DNA from: Escherichia phage ADB-2
Strand: one strand, 5' to 3'
Sequence record: NC_019725.1
DNA length: 50,552 nucleotides
The translations under genes and the position numbers were made by a program. The notes under the pieces are model-generated. The model was not told where the DNA came from. It saw only the letters and a list, made by a program, of their open reading frames with translations, and did no database searches. This document shows, in pieces, positions 2,468 to 43,035 of the stretch; the stretch's first letter is position 1, and every line of letters starts with the position of its first letter.

Positions 2468-3153
2468 TGCGATCGCTTTGAAAAAACCACGCGGCGACAG
2501 GGATCTTATCAGCTTCGTTTTGGCAGACTTGCCGCCAAGTTTGTTTTGCTGTGCAGAGTACCCGTCAGGCAGATTTACAGGTTTTCTCTCCGGCATGACA
2601 AAATCGTCAGAGGTCCACAGACAAGTTTTCTTCGGGTAAGCATCGCGCGGCGCAATATACATCGGGAACCAGGGGTGTGAGTCATTCTCAGGAAGATAGC
2701 CGCCATACTCCCAGGGATTGAAGGAGTGATTTGGTTTTCTCCACGCAGACGACAGGACGCTTACCGGATTCTCAATGATGTAAGTCACGCCTAGCTATCG
2801 CCAATGTTCGCAGCAATCCGGGCAGTAGCGACAGCCTTCTCCTGGAATAACGGATCGCGTTCACGCTTGCTTGCAAAATGGCGAGCGCCACTAACAGCCA
2901 GGTCAGTGCAAGGAGGGAAAGCCATAATGAAATCCGGCTTGCCATACACACCAGAGATAGCATCACGCTCAAACGCTGCGTCAATGAACACGTTCACATA
3001 CTCAATGTTCGGATGCTCCACTCTGGCATTGTACTTTGCGTAATCTCCGTGATCGGCTCCGTCAAAGTTGAAGCACATCACCTTATGACCTTGCTTTGCC
3101 AGTTCATAACCAGCAATCCCGGAACCGTCGAATAGCGACCAAATTAATTTCAT
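2450..3153 (-). pseudogene. cytosine-C5 DNA methyltransferase-like gene, frame-disrupted near 2790 (possible sequencing indel)
   Basis: N-terminal ORF has LFDGSGIAG (motif I-like) and FPPCTDLAVSG (PC motif IV-like); adjacent ORF in -1 frame begins YIIENPVS (ENV motif VI-like); spacing of motifs matches C5-MTases. Confidence 0.5.
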
Positions 3154-3213
3154 CGTGACTTCCTCTTCTGATTGGTTTATGTGCCGGACTATACCCGATC
3201 TACCCGACCGAGT

Positions 3214-3233
3214 CGTTAGCAAAAAATGCTATT
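3214..3233 (-). promoter_or_regulatory. conserved intergenic element (copy 3, variant TAGCAT)
   Basis: rc = AATAGCATTTTTTGCTAACG; upstream of methyltransferase-like gene. Confidence 0.55.
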
Positions 3234-3854
3234 CCAATAATTGCTCATTATTCCATCAGTGCTGTAATAGGTGGAATAATTTTGATTGTGATTGATTGTG
3301 AATGATGAAACGTGATTATTGCATGGTGTGCAACAGTTGGTTGATTTGTTGCTTAGAATGCAATGATTGTGAGAGGGGGGATTTAGTGTTACCCGGTTCG
3401 CCTGGTGGTCATCTCCATTTTTAGCAAAACGTGCTATCGATTACGGTTACACTTGACCGCGTGTTAACAGTTGTCTACAATTTGCCTGAATCTCAATAGT
3501 AGACAAAATTACACCAAATTACGCCTTATAATATACATATAGATATATGTATATATATAATATATAAGTATTTTTTTATTTGTATATATAGATACTATTA
3601 TCTGTAATATGGTTGTATAGCGTGTCTACTATGTTAATCGTTGGATGCTCTGATTATTGTATTCATGTTTATATATACAGTAGTTTTATCGGCTCATATT
3701 TATATGGGGAAAGCGATTAACACGATTAACACGATTAACCACACTTAAAATCGACCTGCAAGCCTTGACGCAGGCGGGTCGTCGTGTAACACTGCAATTA
3801 GAGACGCGCTGTTACGCGTTAATCATTGTGTATATTGAAAATAAGGAGAAACCT
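3223..3854. promoter_or_regulatory. AT-rich divergent intergenic region with short repeats (candidate regulatory hub / origin)
   Basis: 630 bp without convincing ORF between divergent gene blocks; TATATA-rich; 3 tandem copies of GATTAACAC (3714-3741); inverted TTGTCTAC/GTAGACAA; TGATTG repeats. Confidence 0.5.
3417..3437 (-). promoter_or_regulatory. conserved intergenic element (copy 4)
   Basis: rc = ATAGCACGTTTTGCTAAAAAT; no coding gene directly downstream on minus strand. Confidence 0.55.
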
Positions 3855-4319
3855 ATGAGTTCTTACCAATCAGATGCGGTTCAGGCAGCAATTCAGGCGG
3901 CTTACGAGAAGGCAGGGGTAACGGTTGAGCAGCGCCAGGAGGCTAAGGTGACTGATGTTATCCGGGCCGCTTGCGATCAGCTTTATGGTGATGGCGAGAA
4001 TACTGAGTTCACATTCGACGCTACTCAAATGGCTGAGGCCGCTGTAAGGAAGTCAATGCCAGACGCCGACGATTATGATGTTGTCGAGTGCGCTGGGTCG
4101 TGGTTGTTGGGTAAAACCGAAGAGATTAACGAGAAGTTTAAATCATCATTCATCACCCCGATCGTTTCTCGCCACTTCTCCAAAATCGGCAAATCGGTCA
4201 AGGTGAGCGTGACTATGAACGATGAGAAGTTGCGAGTAGTTACTATCTCAGTGAGTGATGAAGAGGTTCCGGTGAAGAAGCGCCGCAGCCGGAAAAAGTT
4301 AGCTTGGCTGATTGCTTGA
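3855..4319 (+). CDS. hypothetical protein
   Basis: 154 aa from ATG with AAGGAG RBS. Confidence 0.55.
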   Translation: MSSYQSDAVQAAIQAAYEKAGVTVEQRQEAKVTDVIRAACDQLYGDGENTEFTFDATQMAEAAVRKSMPDADDYDVVECAGSWLLGKTEEINEKFKSSFITPIVSRHFSKIGKSVKVSVTMNDEKLRVVTISVSDEEVPVKKRRSRKKLAWLIA

Positions 4320-4434: not shown

Positions 4435-4680
4435 ATGAGTATGAGCAAAATTAAGCATGACGCCCTGAAAGGTATCTTGATGCGACTAAACCCAGGCGAA
4501 GCATTCCAGCTTAACCCCGAGACGTTTGGATTCAATGGTGATTATCGTACAACCTTCGAATTTGTAAGGTATGTAAAGAAAGAGTTTGGATTCGAAGTTA
4601 TTCACGCAGGTCTTATCAATGGCATCCAGACATTCATCTTTAAGCCAAATGAGATTCGTTGCTTCACACTGATGAAATAG
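4435..4680 (+). CDS. hypothetical protein
   Basis: 81-aa ORF, AGGAGAG RBS. Confidence 0.5.
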   Translation: MSMSKIKHDALKGILMRLNPGEAFQLNPETFGFNGDYRTTFEFVRYVKKEFGFEVIHAGLINGIQTFIFKPNEIRCFTLMK

Positions 4681-4695
4681 CACTTTTTGTTAAAG
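4676..4695 (+). promoter_or_regulatory. conserved intergenic element (copy 5)
   Basis: AATAGCACTTTTTGTTAAAG; TAG doubles as stop of upstream ORF. Confidence 0.6.
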
Positions 4696-4752
4696 ACCGG
4701 TCTAGCGGATCGGGTATTATCTTTTCATCGACACGATACAGAGGAAACGAAT

Positions 4753-4947
4753 ATGGAAACGCAAATTGACGTAGTGGTTGTTCAGCGCGACTCAACTCAT
4801 GAAAAGGGTCTGTTCAAGAAAGGAACCGAAATCACGATCGACCTTGAGGATATGGTTGCATATCACTCGGGCCTTACCTGGAACGTGGTGCGCGTAGGCA
4901 GCGACTACAAACTCAAAGGCTTTAACACTTACTTTGCAGAGGTTTAA
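4753..4947 (+). CDS. hypothetical protein
   Basis: 64 aa from ATG with GAGGAAA RBS. Confidence 0.5.
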   Translation: METQIDVVVVQRDSTHEKGLFKKGTEITIDLEDMVAYHSGLTWNVVRVGSDYKLKGFNTYFAEV

Positions 4948-7902: not shown

Positions 7903-8051
7903 TGGCGGCGTGGATTTTGATTATCTTGATGAGTACCGGGCCAGATCACGTATACATGGAAAGCCAACAATCATGCAACAAGGCTCGGGAAGTAATTGCA
8001 GAAAACAAGCCGTTCGGATACGAAGTAAAAACAATGTGCGTTAAACGATAG
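7902..8051 (+). CDS. small hydrophobic protein (49 aa)
   Basis: ATG overlapping upstream TAA (TAATG); hydrophobic N-terminus MAAWILIILMSTG; stop TAG is part of element copy 10; below the ORF-track size cutoff. Confidence 0.4.
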   Translation: MAAWILIILMSTGPDHVYMESQQSCNKAREVIAENKPFGYEVKTMCVKR

Positions 8052-8066
8052 CACGAATTGCTAAAC
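8048..8066 (+). promoter_or_regulatory. conserved intergenic element (copy 10)
   Basis: ATAGCACGAATTGCTAAAC then hairpin GGCCA...TGGCC with TGATATAGT. Confidence 0.6.
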
Positions 8067-9298: not shown

Positions 9299-9421
9299 AT
9301 GAATAGCTTTATGCCTGACTTTAAGAACTGGAAAAACGAACCTCCATCATTTCAGGAGTTGCTATTCTGCCTCCTGGTCCTGACATTATCTCTTAAGGGT
9401 GTTTTATGGCTACTATCATGA
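9299..9421 (+). CDS. small membrane protein (40 aa)
   Basis: ATG with GAGGTGA RBS; hydrophobic C-terminal half LLFCLLVLTLSL; below ORF-track cutoff. Confidence 0.35.
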   Translation: MNSFMPDFKNWKNEPPSFQELLFCLLVLTLSLKGVLWLLS

Positions 9422-10931: not shown

Positions 10932-11504
10932 ATGAAAACAGCTATCATTTTAAACGGTGCACCTGGTGCTGGAAAGGACACTATCGGATGCATCCTGGCT
11001 GACACTTACGATCATGTAGCTTTGCGCAGCTTCAAAGCACCAATGTTTGAGATTGCTCGGGCAATCTTGGGTGAAACTAACTACGAGTATTTCATGTTCT
11101 TGTATGAGGACCGTAGTTACAAAGAAGAGCCAGCATCAATCCTGAACGGTAAAAGCCCGCGCCAGTTTATGATCTGGATTAGCGAGGAAGTCATCAAGCC
11201 GCAGTTCGGAAATCGATTCTTCGGTATGCGAGCGGAAAGCAAGGTGAAAGAGTCGCACTCACTTTCGGTATTTACTGACGGGGGATTCAAAGACGAGATC
11301 TTGCAAATGATTGAAGGAGATATCCAGGTCAAGCTATGCCGCATACATCGCAACGGTTGCAACTTCGATAACGACAGTCGCGATTATATCTATCTGGACG
11401 ATATGATCGGGGTTAACGGTTATCAGGAATGTGACTTCTTCTCTGTCGAAGGTCATCCAGAAATTACCGCTCAGCACATAGCCGCTACGTTCATCAACAA
11501 ATAG
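10932..11504 (+). CDS. P-loop nucleotide/nucleoside-monophosphate kinase-like protein
   Basis: N-terminal Walker A ILNGAPGAGKDT, reminiscent of phage dNMP kinases; adjacent to HAD phosphatase. Confidence 0.55.
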   Translation: MKTAIILNGAPGAGKDTIGCILADTYDHVALRSFKAPMFEIARAILGETNYEYFMFLYEDRSYKEEPASILNGKSPRQFMIWISEEVIKPQFGNRFFGMRAESKVKESHSLSVFTDGGFKDEILQMIEGDIQVKLCRIHRNGCNFDNDSRDYIYLDDMIGVNGYQECDFFSVEGHPEITAQHIAATFINK

Positions 11505-11520
11505 CACGAATTGCTAAAAC
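11499..11520 (+). promoter_or_regulatory. conserved intergenic element (copy 13)
   Basis: AAATAGCACGAATTGCTAAAAC; TAG = stop of kinase gene. Confidence 0.6.
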
Positions 11521-13332: not shown

Positions 13333-13349
13333 AGCACTAAATGTTAAAC
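13329..13349 (+). promoter_or_regulatory. conserved intergenic element (copy 14)
   Basis: AAATAGCACTAAATGTTAAAC immediately followed by RBS AAGAGGA and the terminase small subunit ATG. Confidence 0.6.
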
Positions 13350-13364
13350 AAAGAGGATGGATTT

Positions 13365-13888
13365 ATGACTGAACCTAAGAACGCCCCCGTTGTCCAGGGA
13401 GGTAATTTCAAAGAGCTATACAAGAAAAAGTTCGGCACTGTTCTTGCGAAGAATCGGGCAATGACTCCTGAGCAATTATTCGATCTGTCAGTGAAGTATT
13501 TTGAGTGGGCCGAAGATAATGCGATCAAGCGTCAGAATCAGCCAGCTTCCAGGGTGGCGTTTACGAGTCACTTGTTCATAAGCCGCGCGTCTTCACTTGG
13601 ACCGGATACCGACTATTCATAGGAGCAAGCGAGGCCGCAATCATTAAATGGAAACGAGAGGAAGAATACAGTGAGGTTATGGAGTTCGTGGAATCTGTAA
13701 TCAACGAGCAAAAATTCCAGCTTGCTGCCAACGGTGTGATTAACGCTTCCTTTATCGGTAAGGATTTGGGAATCGATAAGCCAGCCTCAATCAATATCGA
13801 AAACTCGTCAGCTTCCGCATCGACAGTAGTCGCCACTACTGAGGATGCAATGAAAGAGGCAGTAAACAGCATTCTTGATATGCTTTAA
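13365..13888 (+). CDS. terminase small subunit (frame disrupted near 13545-13600)
   Basis: N-terminal part (frame of 13365) and C-terminal part (...PRVFTWTGYRLFIGASEAAIIKW...) lie in frames offset by -1; first gene of the packaging/head cluster. Confidence 0.55.
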
Positions 13889-40467: not shown

Positions 40468-40488
40468 GTTTTAACTAAAAATGCTATT
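40468..40488 (-). promoter_or_regulatory. conserved intergenic element (copy 19)
   Basis: rc = AATAGCATTTTTAGTTAAAAC; overlaps stop of 40471..40923. Confidence 0.55.
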
Positions 40489-40923
40489 AGTCGTTCCGAT
40501 ATCTTCCTTCTTCACGACGCGCATAAATTTCTTGTTCTTGCATCGCTTCTCAAGGCACTTGCCGTTACCGTCAAACTTCAGGTCGAATCGCAACCATGCG
40601 GCCCTAAACCCTTTACACCCCTGTCGGCGGTAAGCGCGATGCGCAGCTTCAGCACCTTGCCATGAAATCATATTGCGTTCTTTCCAGCCTTGCACCGTCT
40701 GATTGCTAACTTTTAGAGCCTTTGCGCAGGCCGCTGGGCCACCGTAATATTCGATAAGAGCATCAAGTCGCGCTCGCAGTCCGGCGCGTGTTTCTTCTTT
40801 ATGAATATAGAACCCACATCTCTGGCGAGGCCTTTTGTCTTTACCTCGTCGCGTTCCGTTGTTACCATTAATGTGACGTTTATCGATTTCACCAGTTGAC
40901 TCTGCGATACGTTGCATATTCAT
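40471..40923 (-). CDS. putative DNA-binding regulator (HTH-like segment, Cys-rich C-terminus)
   Basis: 150 aa from ATG with AGGAGAA RBS; segment GGPAACAKALKVSNQTVQGWKERN resembles Cro/YdaS-type HTH; basic; transcribed divergently from helicase. Confidence 0.4.
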   Translation of the reverse strand: MNMQRIAESTGEIDKRHINGNNGTRRGKDKRPRQRCGFYIHKEETRAGLRARLDALIEYYGGPAACAKALKVSNQTVQGWKERNMISWQGAEAAHRAYRRQGCKGFRAAWLRFDLKFDGNGKCLEKRCKNKKFMRVVKKEDIGTTNSIFS

Positions 40924-40935
40924 CTCAATTCTCCT

Positions 40936-40956
40936 GTAGCACTTTTTGCTAAAAAC
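40936..40956 (+). promoter_or_regulatory. conserved intergenic element (copy 20)
   Basis: GTAGCACTTTTTGCTAAAAAC, 15 nt upstream of TGtATTAT box (40972-40979). Confidence 0.6.
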
Positions 40957-41017
40957 GTTTACTGTATGTCGTGTATTATAGCGTAAACGATACAACGATT
41001 CAAAGGATTAAATAGCC

Positions 41018-43035
41018 GTGACAATTAACATCAAAAAGCAAATCGCATTACTTGGCGATGACTACATAAAACGCACTCAAGATCGATTCACTGTCGGCGA
41101 GGTCGTTCCTTACCCGTACCAAGTTGTTGCTTATGCCGAGATCGCGAAACGCCTATCAAATTATGAGCATCCATTCTTCGTTAAAGCGTCTGTATCAGCA
41201 GGTAAGACAATCATCTTCGCTATGGTGGCAAAGCAGTGTCAGAAAATGGGCTTAAAAATGCTCGTTCTTGCTCGTCAGGGTGAGATTGTCGATCAGGATA
41301 GTGAGGAGATTGACAACTTCGGGGTAACTAATTCCATATTCTCAGCCTCATTAGGTATTAAGTCCTGCTACTTCCCGATCGTGTTGGATCTGAGGGTACG
41401 GTTGCAAATGGCCTAGATAATGAGTTGGCTGACTTCGTCCCGCATGTAATTGGGATCGACGAATGTCATCAGGTGGATTGGGAAGACCTTGCGCAAGCCA
41501 TTGATGGCAAGGAAACAATGGAACAAATGAGGGGCGAGAAAGGGAAAATTATCATGGACGGAGATATTCCTCTGATTGGTAATGATGGAAAACCTCTTCT
41601 TGGAACTAAGCGCAGCCAGTACACTATAGTAATCATGGAAATGATGCGACGCTGTAAAGAGGTTCACGGGCACGATCTTAGAATATTTGGTATGACTGGA
41701 TCTGAATTTCGTGGCGTAGTTCCTATTCTGGTAGAGAATCCGAAAGCATTGGGATTCTGGCGTGAGCGAGTAACTGATATCGACACAAACTATCTGATTG
41801 AGTTCGGCTCTGTCGTTCCGACTATATTCGGATCAACAGACGGAGTTCATTACGATCTGGATAAGTTCAAGGCGTCGAGCGAGGACGGAGTGCAGGACTT
41901 TACAGAGAAAGACATGAAGGCTATGGAAGATGAGATCCTTCATGATAAATCTCTTACTCAGCGAATCATGCAAATGGTTGCCAAAAAGGCTGAAGAGCGT
42001 AACGCGGTACTGATTACATGCGCCGGGGTGCGTCACTGTAAAGAGGCGGCGGCTGCACTTCCACCTGGAAGTACCTATGCAATTATCACTGGCGAAACAG
42101 ACACCAAAACGCGCAAGAAGATTCTGGACGATGTAAGGGCAGGAAAAATTAAATACACCTTTCAGGTAATGGCGCTCACTACTGGCGTTAACGTTCCAAA
42201 TTGGGATTTCAGTGTCATACTCCGCAAGATAGGGTCGCTAACACTGTTGATTCAACTTTTGGGTAGGGGTATGCGTCTGCTTAAATCATGGCAGGTTGCT
42301 GAGGGAATGGTTAAGCAGGACCATCTGGTATGGGATTTCGCAGGTACGATGGATGAGTTGGGTCAGCTTTATTTCGATCCGATACTTGAGCAGGCGCAAT
42401 TCCAAAAGCGTTTTGAAAACGGAAAAGACCCGAAAACGTGTCCGAAGTGTGGTTGCGTAAATAGCTTCTACGCTCGCAGATGCATTAACGTCATCGACGG
42501 CGAGCGTTGCGATCATTTCTGGACTTCTCAGATTTGTGAGGACCAGGTTGACGAGCGCACAGGAAAAATCCTTGTTAAAGGATGCGGTGCAGAGAATGAC
42601 GTTGTGGCCCGAGTCTGTCGTTGTTGTGATGTTTCGCTTGTCGATCCTAACCTGAAGTTATCCGGTAAGGCGTACACTAAGAATGACTGGTATGAAGTAA
42701 AGAATTTTGAGGTTACGCTAACCAAAAACCAGAAAGGCATAATATACAAATACACGCTGATTAACGACGATGGTGATGAGTTCAAGGCGTATGAAAAATT
42801 CTTCCCCGAGTCAGACTCTAAGATTTGCGGTACGCTATGGAAAACGAAAGGTGTATTACCTCATGTGTCAGATCCTAAAATGCGTCGCTACTTTATCGGA
42901 ATGAAGAACGCTATCAAGATCGTGCAATACTCTCATCATATAGCGCATCCGGTACGCGTTACTCATAGGCGCAACCAGAAGAAGGAAGATATTATTTCAC
43001 GCAAAGATTTCGGTATGGAGGATATCCCGGAATGA
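41018..43035 (+). CDS. superfamily-2 DNA helicase with C-terminal zinc-ribbon (frame disrupted near 41365-41400)
   Basis: N-terminal ORF has Walker A SAGKT; continuation in -1 frame has DExH box GIDECHQ and later CPKCGC/CRCCD zinc-ribbon motifs. Confidence 0.75.

What the first reader, a model, noticed from the sequence alone, without database searches (positions are those of the whole stretch)
3223..3854. 630-bp AT-rich divergent control region with iteron-like repeats
This region separates the minus-strand and plus-strand early blocks and has no convincing ORF. It contains TATATA-rich tracts, three tandem copies of GATTAACAC (3714-3741), the inverted pair TTGTCTAC/GTAGACAA (3463-3510), a further GTGTCTAC (3620), TGATTG repeats (3280-3305) and a G7 run (3374-3380). 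Such architecture is typical of replication origins or divergent promoter hubs bound by a regulator. An orphan element copy (3417-3437) points into it on the minus strand.
Basis: seen in the sequence. Interest (0 to 1): 0.6.

Follow-up and report, generated by a model that had tools for sequence, protein, structure and literature searches.

The report
T1-type packaging-start and early-promoter region
This 700-bp gene-free stretch is the T1-family phage "left-end" control region: it most likely holds the site where DNA packaging starts plus the promoters of the first genes, and its short repeats look like binding sites that travel with the neighbouring gene rather than a proven replication origin.

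Summary
The repeats are real and far beyond chance. The window is a T1-like phage (Tunavirus, probably ADB-2). The gene-free stretch is 3154-3854, between a leftward Dcm-like methylase gene and the first rightward gene, gp1.

It splits into two parts at 3437/3438.

Left part (3212-3437): conserved in all 19 relatives examined. It holds the densest GATT(T)G cluster of the genome. The phage T1 record, annotated with a terminal repeat at 1-2800, begins at the position matching window 3318. The restriction-mapped pac of phage TLS lies in an equivalent cluster.

Right part (3438-3854): an exchangeable module with two sigma-70-like rightward promoters, a 90% AT tract and short motif arrays. Three Tunavirus lineages keep the same layout (an inverted copy, then tandem copies about 90 nt on) but use different motifs: GATTAAC, CTAGACA, CGGTTGCA. 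Primase, helicase, the Cro-like regulator and terminase are 95-100% identical across these lineages. Only gp1 changes with the motif.

An origin bound by the conserved replication proteins is therefore unlikely. An origin activated by transcription, or one specified by gp1, remains possible. Interest is moderate.

The parts
3188..3234 (-). Leftward promoter of the methylase operon: 21-nt T1-family repeat element (3214-3234) plus a -10 TATAGT (3193-3188), 23 nt after TTGCTA.
   Evidence: 21 of 26 element copies have a -10 hexamer 21-23 nt downstream, against 6.4% at random positions. for coordinates. The -10 ('ATACCC' on the plus strand) is conserved in relatives.
3233..3416 (.). Conserved left block, the candidate pac (packaging initiation) region, bracketed by the two leftward repeat elements.
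   Evidence: Aligns without indels in 10 of 11 aligned phages, whatever the flanking genes or right-hand module. The T1, JMPW1, JMPW2, phi2457T, FCWL1 and Chapo records start at the position matching window 3318. Shfl1 starts at 3372, S2_02 at about 3373, SH2 at 3386, and IME167 and Henu5_2 at about 3406. The T1 records annotate repeat_region 1-2800.
3282..3372 (+). GATT(T)G / TGATTGTGA repeat cluster (3283-3291, 3293-3301, 3364-3372, plus 3289 and 3342). Proposed terminase small-subunit recognition repeats flanking the T1 end position 3317|3318.
   Evidence: It is the densest 100-nt GATT(T)G cluster of the genome on the rightward strand in 6 of 6 Tunavirus genomes; AV106 has an equal cluster on the other strand. 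The TLS record, whose pac was mapped by restriction analysis (PMC11447400), starts inside an equivalent cluster with 5 copies between -12 and +34. A similar cluster exists in the Webervirus phage KW1.2.
3247..3280 (.). Conserved inverted repeat ATTATTCCA / TGGAATAAT, upstream of the leftward promoter.
   Evidence: I19. Conserved in all relatives and recognisable in the Webervirus phage KW1.2. Function unknown.
3419..3439 (-). 'Orphan' copy of the 21-nt T1-family repeat (ATAGCACGTTTTGCTAAAA on the minus strand). It has no -10 at the usual spacing and no gene follows. Its right edge is the mosaic breakpoint between the conserved left block and the exchangeable right module.
   Evidence: one of 5 copies without a -10. 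Matches the TLS consensus aaATAGCACnnnTTGnTAAAA. Relatives diverge from 3438 onward. The palindrome centre at 3429 lies about 60 nt upstream of the predicted P1 start.
3453..3481 (+). Rightward sigma-70-like promoter P1 (TTGACC-17 nt-TACAAT).
   Evidence: 10 of 12 matches. The same offsets carry TTGATT-17-TATGAT (T1), TTGTCA-17-TAGAAT (lineage B) and TTGTAA-17-TACCAT (lineage C).
3471..3506 (.). Inverted repeat TTGTCTAC ... GTAGACAA spanning the P1 -10 and predicted start; operator-like.
   Evidence: I9. T1 and JMPW2 read TTGTATA ... TATACAA, a change on both arms. Lineages B and C keep TTGTC...GACAA and TTGTA...TACAA at the same place. LHE71 and ULIM2 are mismatched intermediates.
3527..3600 (.). 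AT-rich tract (90.5% AT) with TATATA runs.
   Evidence: Nearly identical in lineages A and B. Replaced in lineage C, TLS and Webervirus by a different but equally AT-rich tract at the same position.
3622..3640 (.). TGTCTAC copy (3623-3629) followed by an inverted copy of the array motif, GTTAATCG (3633-3640).
   Evidence: (I13, I17, I21). Lineage B has TTGTCTAGCG and lineage C GTGCAACCG at the equivalent place, each the reverse complement of that lineage's own tandem motif.
3714..3741 (+). Tandem array CGATTAACA CGATTAACA CGATTAACC (9-bp period), 24-51 nt upstream of the P2 -35.
   Evidence: Identical in all six lineage-A phages. Lineage B has CTAGACAG CTAGACAA and lineage C has CGGTTGCAT CGGTTGCAC TGGTTACAA at the same offset.
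3765..3793 (+). Rightward sigma-70-like promoter P2 (TTGACG, 16-17 nt, TAACAC(T)).
   Evidence: Read from the sequence. TTGAC(A/G) is conserved in all lineages. Lineage B reads TTGACA-17-CACAAT, lineage C TTGACG-18-TAACAT, Webervirus TTGACT-17-TATTAT and TLS TTGACG-17-TAATAT. The window's own -10 is weak.
3818..3824 (-). Fifth copy of the array motif (GTTAATC, inverted), in the gp1 leader.
   Evidence: Lineage B has a direct TAGACAA copy at the same offset, so the position is kept but the orientation is not.
3843..4319 (+). Ribosome-binding site AAGGAGA and gp1 (ATG 3855), the first rightward gene. It is the only protein whose variant follows the motif lineage. It is truncated here by a 1-nt deletion in an A run (4293-4297).
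   Evidence: (phrog_11083, function unknown).

Best explanation
The stretch 3154-3854 is the composite left-end control region of a T1-family phage. It has two independently inherited halves.

(1) Left half, 3212-3437. This holds the packaging initiation (pac) region. The invariant P22-gp3-like small terminase is proposed to assemble on the GATT(T)G repeat cluster. The large terminase then cuts nearby, at about 3318 by homology with T1, and headful packaging runs rightward, giving the roughly 2.8-kb terminal redundancy. The same half carries the leftward repeat-element promoter of the methylase operon.

(2) Right half, 3438-3854. This is an exchangeable immediate-early promoter module. Host RNA polymerase starts at P1 (3453-3481) and P2 (3765-3793) to express gp1 and the downstream early genes. 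The AT tract acts as bent, easily melted upstream DNA. The short motif copies (GATTAAC x5, TGTCTAC x3) are operator-like sites for a factor specific to this module. The only candidate is gp1 itself, which would make this an autoregulatory circuit, possibly looping the roughly 90 bp between the inverted copy and the tandem copies.

Shown: the anatomy, the conservation, the swapping of motifs between lineages and the association with gp1. Inferred: terminase binding, the exact cut position, promoter activity and which protein binds the motifs.
For: pac:
- T1 records begin at the position matching window 3318 and annotate 1-2800 as the terminal repeat.
- About ten further phage records begin between 3318 and 3406, all reading rightward.
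- The SU57 paper states that the T1-family pac lies in this untranslated region.
- TLS pac, mapped by restriction analysis, starts in an equivalent GATTTG cluster.
- The cluster is the genome-wide maximum on the rightward strand in 6 of 6 Tunavirus genomes.
- TerS is 98-100% identical in these genomes, and the left block is the only part of the region conserved in all of them.

Promoters:
- -35 and -10 hexamers sit at fixed offsets in three otherwise unalignable lineages.
- The first rightward repeat-element promoter is only at 4677, so gp1 and the next gene depend on these sigma-70-like promoters.

Operator-like sites:
- Each lineage has its own 7-9-mer at conserved offsets: an inverted copy at about 177-196 and tandem copies at about 268-295 nt from the orphan element.
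- The motifs are concentrated here: CTAGACAA occurs 3 of 3 times here in lineage-B genomes and never in lineage-A or lineage-C genomes.
- TLS and Webervirus have a similar arrangement (inverted and direct motif copies around the AT tract) with yet other motifs.
- Across six genomes, only gp1 follows the lineage. No conserved protein has more than 3 lineage-diagnostic residues.
Against: - No experimental end-mapping exists for this phage. The T1 start position is taken from record annotation, and the original T1 genome paper could not be read. Several records may simply copy the T1 convention.
- gp1 is adjacent to the motifs, so the association could be plain linkage.
- gp1 is frameshifted here and much shorter in phage vB_SsoS_008, which suggests it is dispensable.
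- The P2 -10 in this window is weak.
- No transcription start data are available.
Confidence: 0.55

Rival explanations
1. Replication origin. Either transcription from P1 into the 90% AT tract opens the DNA for the phage primase and helicase (as at the T7 primary origin or T4 oriF), or gp1 is a lineage-specific initiator that binds the tandem and inverted motifs (as lambda O or P4 alpha bind their iterons) and recruits the conserved helicase through its more conserved C-terminal part.
For: - A promoter, an AT tract and a short-repeat array in this order are kept in five lineages.
- The P4 origin is annotated with 8-bp repeats in tandem and inverted orientation plus three 10-bp tandem repeats, so short motifs are compatible with an origin.
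- The T1 primase is annotated as P4-alpha-like.
- The TLS tandem motif shares the 7-mer GTGAACA with the P4 iteron.
- The N-terminal part of gp1 is lineage-specific and its C-terminal part is more conserved.
- No origin has been identified for T1-like phages.
Against: - Primase, helicase and the Cro-like regulator are 95-99% identical across the three motif lineages, with no lineage-diagnostic residues, so they cannot read the motifs.
- gp1 shows no similarity to P4 alpha or to any initiator family.
- gp1 is truncated or frameshifted in some phages, which is unexpected for an essential initiator.
- There are no exact DnaA boxes, no IHF-site excess and no GATC clustering.
- GC skew follows gene orientation and cannot discriminate.
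Confidence: 0.2
2. The inverted and direct motif copies pair with each other within the long 5' leader RNA made from P1, or in single-stranded DNA. They would form a lineage-specific long-range stem that controls stability, processing or read-through to gp1. No protein reads the motif sequence itself.
For: - The window leader 3488-3860 folds far better than shuffled sequence (z = -6.5; -5.9), and the plus strand folds better than the minus strand.
- In the minimum-energy fold every inverted copy pairs with a direct copy.
- The pairing between the arm at about 180-195 and the arm at about 276-290 is kept through three unrelated sequences, and Webervirus has a perfect 15-nt pair about 110 nt apart start to start.
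- The two single-copy variants seen (IME18 A>G, LHE71 C>T) would both give G-U pairs.
Against: - Strong folding is not conserved: T1 z = -2.1, LeonhardEuler z = -0.8.
- Copies at about offset 380 have opposite orientations in lineages A and B, and copies at offset 25-34 lie upstream of the predicted start.
- Tandem triplication is not needed for a stem.
- A 9-10-bp AU-rich stem closing an 80-nt loop is weak.
- Rfam has no match.
Confidence: 0.12
3. The repeats are non-functional low-complexity or slippage products in an AT-rich spacer.
For: AT-rich non-coding DNA accumulates simple repeats. An 8-nt inverted pair within 50 nt is not by itself improbable (own estimate, about 0.5 expected in the region).
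Against: - Three exact 8-mers at a 9-bp period are expected about 1e-5 times in 50 kb (own estimate).
- The motifs are invariant within each lineage.
- Their positions are kept across lineages while the sequence is replaced.
Confidence: 0.03

Closest known systems
Left-end non-coding region of coliphage T1 (NC_005833: 48675-48836 joined to 1-538)
   Same: Homologous, at about 90% identity over 3319-3854, with the same length of about 700 bp. It has the same two repeat elements, GATTG cluster, AT tract, three CGATTAAC repeats and first gene (ST77). The T1 record start and terminal repeat 1-2800 define the packaged left end.
   Different: The left-flanking gene differs: a Dcm-like methylase here, ST1 in T1. 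The left-block allele and the P1 inverted-repeat variant also differ. No function is annotated inside the T1 region beyond the terminal repeat.
pac region of phage TLS (Tlsvirus), mapped by restriction analysis (PMC11447400)
   Same: A gene-free 588-nt stretch at the start of the record. A GATT(T)G repeat cluster lies at the assigned pac. Then come an AT tract, a tandem short motif with inverted copies upstream, and a sigma-70-like promoter before the first gene.
   Different: The sequence is not alignable and the motif is different (CGTGAACA). The authors placed the exact TLS pac by resemblance to P22 pac (AGATTT), not by end sequencing.
pac sites built from short repeats flanking the cut (P1 pac hexamers; SPP1 pacL/pacC/pacR). 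Recalled from memory, not tested here.
   Same: Several copies of a 5-9-bp motif lie on both sides of the end position, within a region of about 100-200 bp.
   Different: Here pac would lie about 10 kb upstream of the terminase genes, not inside or next to terS as in P22 and SPP1. The GATC/Dam control seen in P1 is not evident in this window.
Satellite phage P4 origin (ori type-1 repeats TGTTCACC, type-2 repeats)
   Same: 8-bp motifs in tandem (10-11-bp period) and inverted orientation, plus three tandem 10-mers, in a 62% AT region. The T1-family primase is annotated as alpha-like.
   Different: The binder in P4 is the C-terminal domain of alpha. T1-family phages have no detectable counterpart, and their replication proteins do not vary with the motif.
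Lambdoid ori/O specificity modules and operator/regulator immunity modules. Recalled from memory.
   Same: A cis-acting repeat set and the adjacent gene are exchanged together between otherwise near-identical phages.
   Different: Lambda iterons are 19 bp long and lie inside the O gene. Here the motifs are 7-9 bp, lie upstream of the gene, and the gene product has no known DNA-binding fold.
T1-family 21-nt intergenic repeats (TLS 'DR' elements, PMC11447400)
   Same: The copies at 3214-3234 and 3419-3439 match aaATAGCACnnnTTGnTAAAA and point in the direction of leftward transcription.
   Different: The 3419-3439 copy has no -10 at 22 +/- 1 nt and no gene within about 76 nt.

Membership tests
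Headful pac site | A preferred end of packaged DNA maps to the site. | tested here: inconclusive
   Only by homology. The T1 record start, with repeat_region 1-2800, matches window 3318, and other records start at 3372-3406. There are no reads or virion DNA for this phage.
Headful pac site | Recognition sequence bound by the small terminase, conserved along with the terminase. | tested here: inconclusive
   TerS is 98-100% identical in six genomes, and the left block with its GATT(T)G cluster is the part conserved in all of them. Binding was not tested.
Headful pac site | Sub-molar pac fragment and a limited series of permuted genomes. | not testable with these tools
   Reported for TLS and, from memory, for T1. 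Not available for this phage.
Iteron-type replication origin (lambda, P4, plasmid oriV) | Array of repeated sites next to an AT-rich unwinding region. | tested here: met
   CGATTAAC x3 at 3714-3739 plus two inverted copies, and an AT tract at 3527-3600. The tract lies 114 nt from the array, not adjacent to it.
Iteron-type replication origin (lambda, P4, plasmid oriV) | A cognate initiator protein whose specificity matches the repeats. | tested here: not met
   Primase, helicase and regulator do not vary with the motif lineage. The only co-varying protein, gp1, has no initiator-like sequence or confident fold match.
Iteron-type replication origin (lambda, P4, plasmid oriV) | Replication initiates here. 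| not testable with these tools
   Needs marker-frequency analysis, 2D gels or a plasmid amplification assay.
oriC-like origin | Clustered DnaA boxes and GATC sites. | tested here: not met
   No exact DnaA box; four one-mismatch matches against 1.3 expected. One GATC site against about 3.4 expected.
Sigma-70 promoter region | -35 and -10 hexamers with 16-18-nt spacing, conserved in position in relatives. | tested here: met
   P1 3453-3481 matches 10 of 12 positions, with equivalent hexamers at the same offsets in lineages A, B and C. The P2 TTGAC(A/G) is conserved. In this region the scan count alone equals the shuffle expectation (4 against 4.0), so conservation is the real evidence.
Sigma-70 promoter region | Mapped transcription start. 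| not testable with these tools
   No transcriptome data found.
T1-family 21-nt intergenic repeat | Match to aaATAGCACnnnTTGnTAAAA in the direction of transcription, about 76 nt before a start codon. | tested here: met
   The copy at 3214-3234 has a -10 at 23 nt and the ATG 63 nt beyond the element. The orphan copy 3419-3439 meets the sequence criterion only.
Known structured RNA (Rfam) | Covariance-model match at or near the gathering score. | tested here: not met
   Only two snoRNA-model matches, at E about 0.9 and far below threshold. No tRNA found.

The most novel reading that the evidence does not exclude
The motif array and gp1 form an exchangeable cis/trans specificity module in a virulent phage. 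gp1, a protein of unknown fold family, would read a lineage-specific 7-9-mer as DNA or leader RNA. Through it gp1 would control either initiation of replication at the adjacent AT tract (the still-unidentified T1-family origin) or the immediate-early transcription switch. Co-infecting T1-like phages of different lineages would then be insulated from each other.
Probability: 0.2. Interest if true: 0.6.

Novelty: new member of a known kind. Interest (0 to 1): 0.35.

Why it matters
T1-like phages (Drexlerviridae) are common laboratory contaminants, therapy candidates and generalized transducers. Published analyses of T1-like phages state that no origin was found and that the function of the 21-nt repeats is unknown, and I found no published pac sequence. 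This analysis does four things.
- It places the likely pac determinants in a defined, invariant 184-bp block (3233-3416) containing a GATT(T)G cluster.
- It separates that block from an exchangeable early-promoter module.
- It shows that the 'iterons' cannot be read by the conserved replication proteins.
- It names one testable candidate binder, gp1.

It also gives concrete fragments for engineering, such as pac-bearing plasmids for transduction and early promoters. None of this overturns current understanding. The kind of element is familiar and the region's homologue in T1 has long been on record.

Tried and rejected
- Small coding genes inside the region. The Cys-rich 40-aa ORF 3302-3424 is interrupted in T1. 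The minus-strand ORF that ULIM2 annotates is closed by a stop codon here. The 119-aa ORF annotated in phiL is not open in other lineage-C phages. Rejected.
- Known RNA families and tRNAs: none.
- Conserved structured leader RNA: a strong z-score here and in DELF2, but not in T1 or LeonhardEuler. Kept only as a minor rival.
- oriC-like signals (DnaA boxes, IHF sites, GATC clusters): absent.
- GC skew: follows gene orientation and is uninformative.
- Association of the motif lineage with primase, helicase, Cro-like regulator, terminase or any other conserved protein: none.
- Association of left-block alleles with TerS: none, because TerS is invariant.
- Similarity of gp1 or TLS gp01 to P4 alpha: none.
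- More lineages from IMG/VR and metagenome contigs: these returned only the same isolates or truncated contigs.
- Literature. The T1 genome paper (PMID 14972552) is not held. Searches for a T1 pac sequence, a T1-family origin or a transcriptome found nothing beyond the TLS and SU57 papers.

Full report
**What the window is**

The region matches Tunavirus phages (Drexlerviridae). ISF001 and ISF002 match at about 96%, and T1 and JMPW2 at about 90%. A 154-aa protein identical in length to the window's first rightward gene product is on record for phage ADB-2, on a 50,552-bp contig. The window is therefore probably ADB-2.

The finding lies in the one large gene-free stretch of the genome, 3154-3854. 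It sits between a leftward Dcm-like methylase gene (ATG at 3153) and the first rightward gene, gp1 (ATG at 3855). All relatives have a gene-free stretch here, 665-702 nt long in ten of the eleven aligned, whatever gene lies on the left.

**Check of the observation**

The repeats are present, with small corrections:
- CGATTAAC occurs three times exactly at a 9-bp period (3714-3739).
- The inverted pair is at 3471-3478 and 3499-3506.
- GTGTCTAC is at 3622-3629.
- TTGATTGTGA x2.5 is at 3282-3306, with a third TGATTGTGA at 3364-3372.
- The G run is G6 (3375-3380), not G7, and is not conserved.
- The AT core 3527-3600 is 90.5% AT.

The 'orphan element' is a copy of the 21-nt intergenic repeat already described for T1-like phages (TLS paper). 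The pattern has 22 matches in the window against 2.25 expected.

No ORF in the region is conserved. No Rfam family or tRNA is present.

**Two halves with different histories**

An alignment of 11 relatives, extended to 19-21 sequences, shows that 3212-3437 is conserved in all of them. The sequence to the right of 3437 falls into three lineages:
- A: window, ISF002, T1, JMPW2, ULIM2, LHE71.
- B: BIFF, IME18, JMPW1, the Sfin phages, pSf-2, Shfl1, LeonhardEuler and others.
- C: DELF2, AV106, Chapo, phiL, SH6.

BLAST coverage breaks at exactly these points. Matches to lineage-C phages end at 3437, and matches to lineage-B phages end at 3687.

The left block itself exists in two allelic forms. These assort independently of lineages A, B and C. 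Recombination therefore separates the halves at the conserved orphan element.

**The left half is most likely pac**

- The T1 records start at the position matching window 3318 and annotate 1-2800 as the terminal repeat.
- JMPW1, JMPW2, phi2457T, FCWL1 and Chapo start at the same place.
- Shfl1, S2_02, SH2, IME167 and Henu5_2 start at 3372-3406, all reading rightward. Some of these may follow the T1 convention, but the spread of positions argues that not all do.
- The SU57 paper states that the T1-family pac lies in this untranslated region.
- The block contains the densest GATT(T)G cluster of the genome on the rightward strand in six of six Tunavirus genomes.
- TLS, whose pac was located by restriction mapping, begins inside an equivalent cluster. 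A Webervirus has one too.
- TerS is 98-100% identical in the six genomes. This fits a recognition site that is also invariant.

I infer that TerS binds these repeats and that cutting occurs nearby, with packaging running rightward. Binding and the exact cut are not shown.

**The right half is an early-promoter module with lineage-specific motif arrays**

P1 is TTGACC-17-TACAAT at 3453-3481. It has counterparts at identical offsets in all three lineages despite sequence divergence. P2 (3765-3793) keeps TTGAC(A/G) everywhere. An inverted repeat brackets the P1 -10 and predicted start in all lineages, and T1 shows a change on both arms.

The first rightward repeat-element promoter is at 4677. gp1 and the next gene therefore depend on these sigma-70-like promoters.

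Each lineage has its own 7-9-mer. It appears as an inverted copy about 177-196 nt from the orphan element and as tandem copies at about 268-295 nt. Lineages A and B have further copies at about 25-34 and 380 nt:
- Lineage A: GATTAAC.
- Lineage B: CTAGACA(A).
- Lineage C: CGGTTGCA.

The motifs are concentrated here. CTAGACAA occurs only here in lineage-B genomes and never in lineage-A or lineage-C genomes. TLS (CGTGAACA) and a Webervirus (a 15-nt inverted pair) show a similar design, with inverted and direct motif copies around the AT tract. Positions kept while sequence is replaced is the signature of a specific recognition system, not of chance repeats.

**Who reads the motifs?**

I ran tblastn with all window ORFs against five complete genomes (T1, LeonhardEuler, BIFF, DELF2, AV106). 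With the window itself this gives two genomes of each lineage.
- Primase, the Cro-like regulator, helicase, TerS and TerL are 95-100% identical across lineages.
- No conserved protein has more than three lineage-diagnostic residues.
- Only gp1 follows the lineage: 89% identity to T1, 48% to lineage B, and no hit in lineage C.

gp1 is thus the only candidate, but an unproven one. Linkage alone could explain the association.

**Origin hypothesis**

The architecture resembles phage origins. The P4 record annotates 8-bp repeats in tandem and inverted orientation plus three tandem 10-mers at its origin. However:
- The conserved replication proteins cannot be the readers of lineage-specific motifs.
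- gp1 is truncated or frameshifted in some phages.
- oriC-type signals are absent.
- GC skew follows gene orientation.

An origin that works by transcription into the AT tract cannot be excluded. No T1-family origin is known. I give this rival 0.2.

**RNA-stem hypothesis**

The window's putative leader folds unusually well (z = -6.5 and -5.9), with motif copies pairing to each other. The property is not conserved: T1 gives -2.1 and LeonhardEuler -0.8. Copy orientation at offset 380 also differs between lineages. I give this rival 0.12.

**The 21-nt elements**

In 21 of 26 copies a -10 hexamer lies 22 +/- 1 nt after TTGnTA, against 6.4% at random positions. This places the TAGCA-N5-TGCTA palindrome at about -42, the position of a class II activator site.

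The copy at 3214-3234 fits this pattern and serves the methylase operon. The orphan copy at 3419-3439 does not. It marks the mosaic boundary and lies about 60 nt upstream of the P1 start.

**Verdict**

This is a real, conserved, composite control region. It most likely combines pac, divergent promoters and module-specific operator-like repeats. It is homologous to the long-known T1 left end. It is of moderate interest, mainly as a set of well-defined, testable hypotheses.

Noticed in passing
window-wide, e.g. 4677-4693, 8048-8064, 11501-11517 (26 copies): The 21-nt T1-family repeat looks like the upstream half of a promoter class. In 21 of 26 copies a -10 hexamer lies 22 +/- 1 nt after TTGnTA (6.4% at random positions), often inside a GGGG...CCCC palindrome. 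The TAGCA-N5-TGCTA palindrome then sits at about -42, like a class II activator site. This bears on a question the TLS authors left open.
   Followed up: partly
40471-40995 (-): The ST23-like 'transcriptional regulator' has a sub-threshold P22 Cro-type helix-turn-helix match (E = 5.5e-5). It is 95-98% identical in all the phages compared, which makes it a candidate binder of the invariant 21-nt palindromic repeats.
   Followed up: partly
4290-4319 and downstream to about 4430: gp1 is cut short (154 against 191 aa) by a 1-nt deletion in an A run (A5 here, A6 in ISF002). The +1 frame continues with a C-terminus identical to the lineage-B form (LeonhardEuler). The gene is therefore an A/B chimera, and the frameshift may be a homopolymer sequencing error.
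   Followed up: partly
2450-2788 / 2791-3153 (-); 41018-41416 / 41425-43035 (+); about 13341-13870 (+): Several genes that are intact in relatives are split here. The Dcm-like methylase and the 672-aa helicase each fall into two ORFs. The T1 TerS aligns only from residue 55 onward. These could be real pseudogenes or systematic indel errors in this assembly.
   Followed up: no
4687-4947 (+): The third rightward early gene matches Pfam PF25180, 'phage antiviral trigger protein Gp54' (E = 6.6e-36). This fits the idea that the pac-proximal early region is a host-interaction and anti-defence region.
   Followed up: no
L043 (TLS) 412-428; L045 (P4) 9310-9413: The TLS tandem motif CGTGAACA CGTGAACA shares the 7-mer GTGAACA with the P4 ori type-1 iteron (TGTTCACC, reverse complement GGTGAACA). 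No P4-alpha-like DNA-binding domain was found in gp1 or TLS gp01.
   Followed up: partly
L040, L041, L042 (metagenome contigs): Three metagenome contigs, one a full-length 50,364-nt genome, end 44-70 nt to the right of the orphan element, matching window 3481-3507. This could be an assembly break at the AT tract or a physical end. Unexplained.
   Followed up: no
3233-3416: The left block has two allelic forms: TTGATTGTGATTGATTG... and CGATC..GATTGATCTC.... The second form carries GATC sites where the window has none. The forms assort independently of the right-module lineages A, B and C.
   Followed up: partly
L010 (vB_SsoS_008) about 2040-2114: This phage has a lineage-B array followed by a duplicated hybrid leader, a lineage-A-like GTTAATCATGG...GGAGAAAGCT and then a lineage-B leader. 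It also has a shortened first gene and a deletion in the left block. It shows that the region tolerates rearrangement.
   Followed up: no
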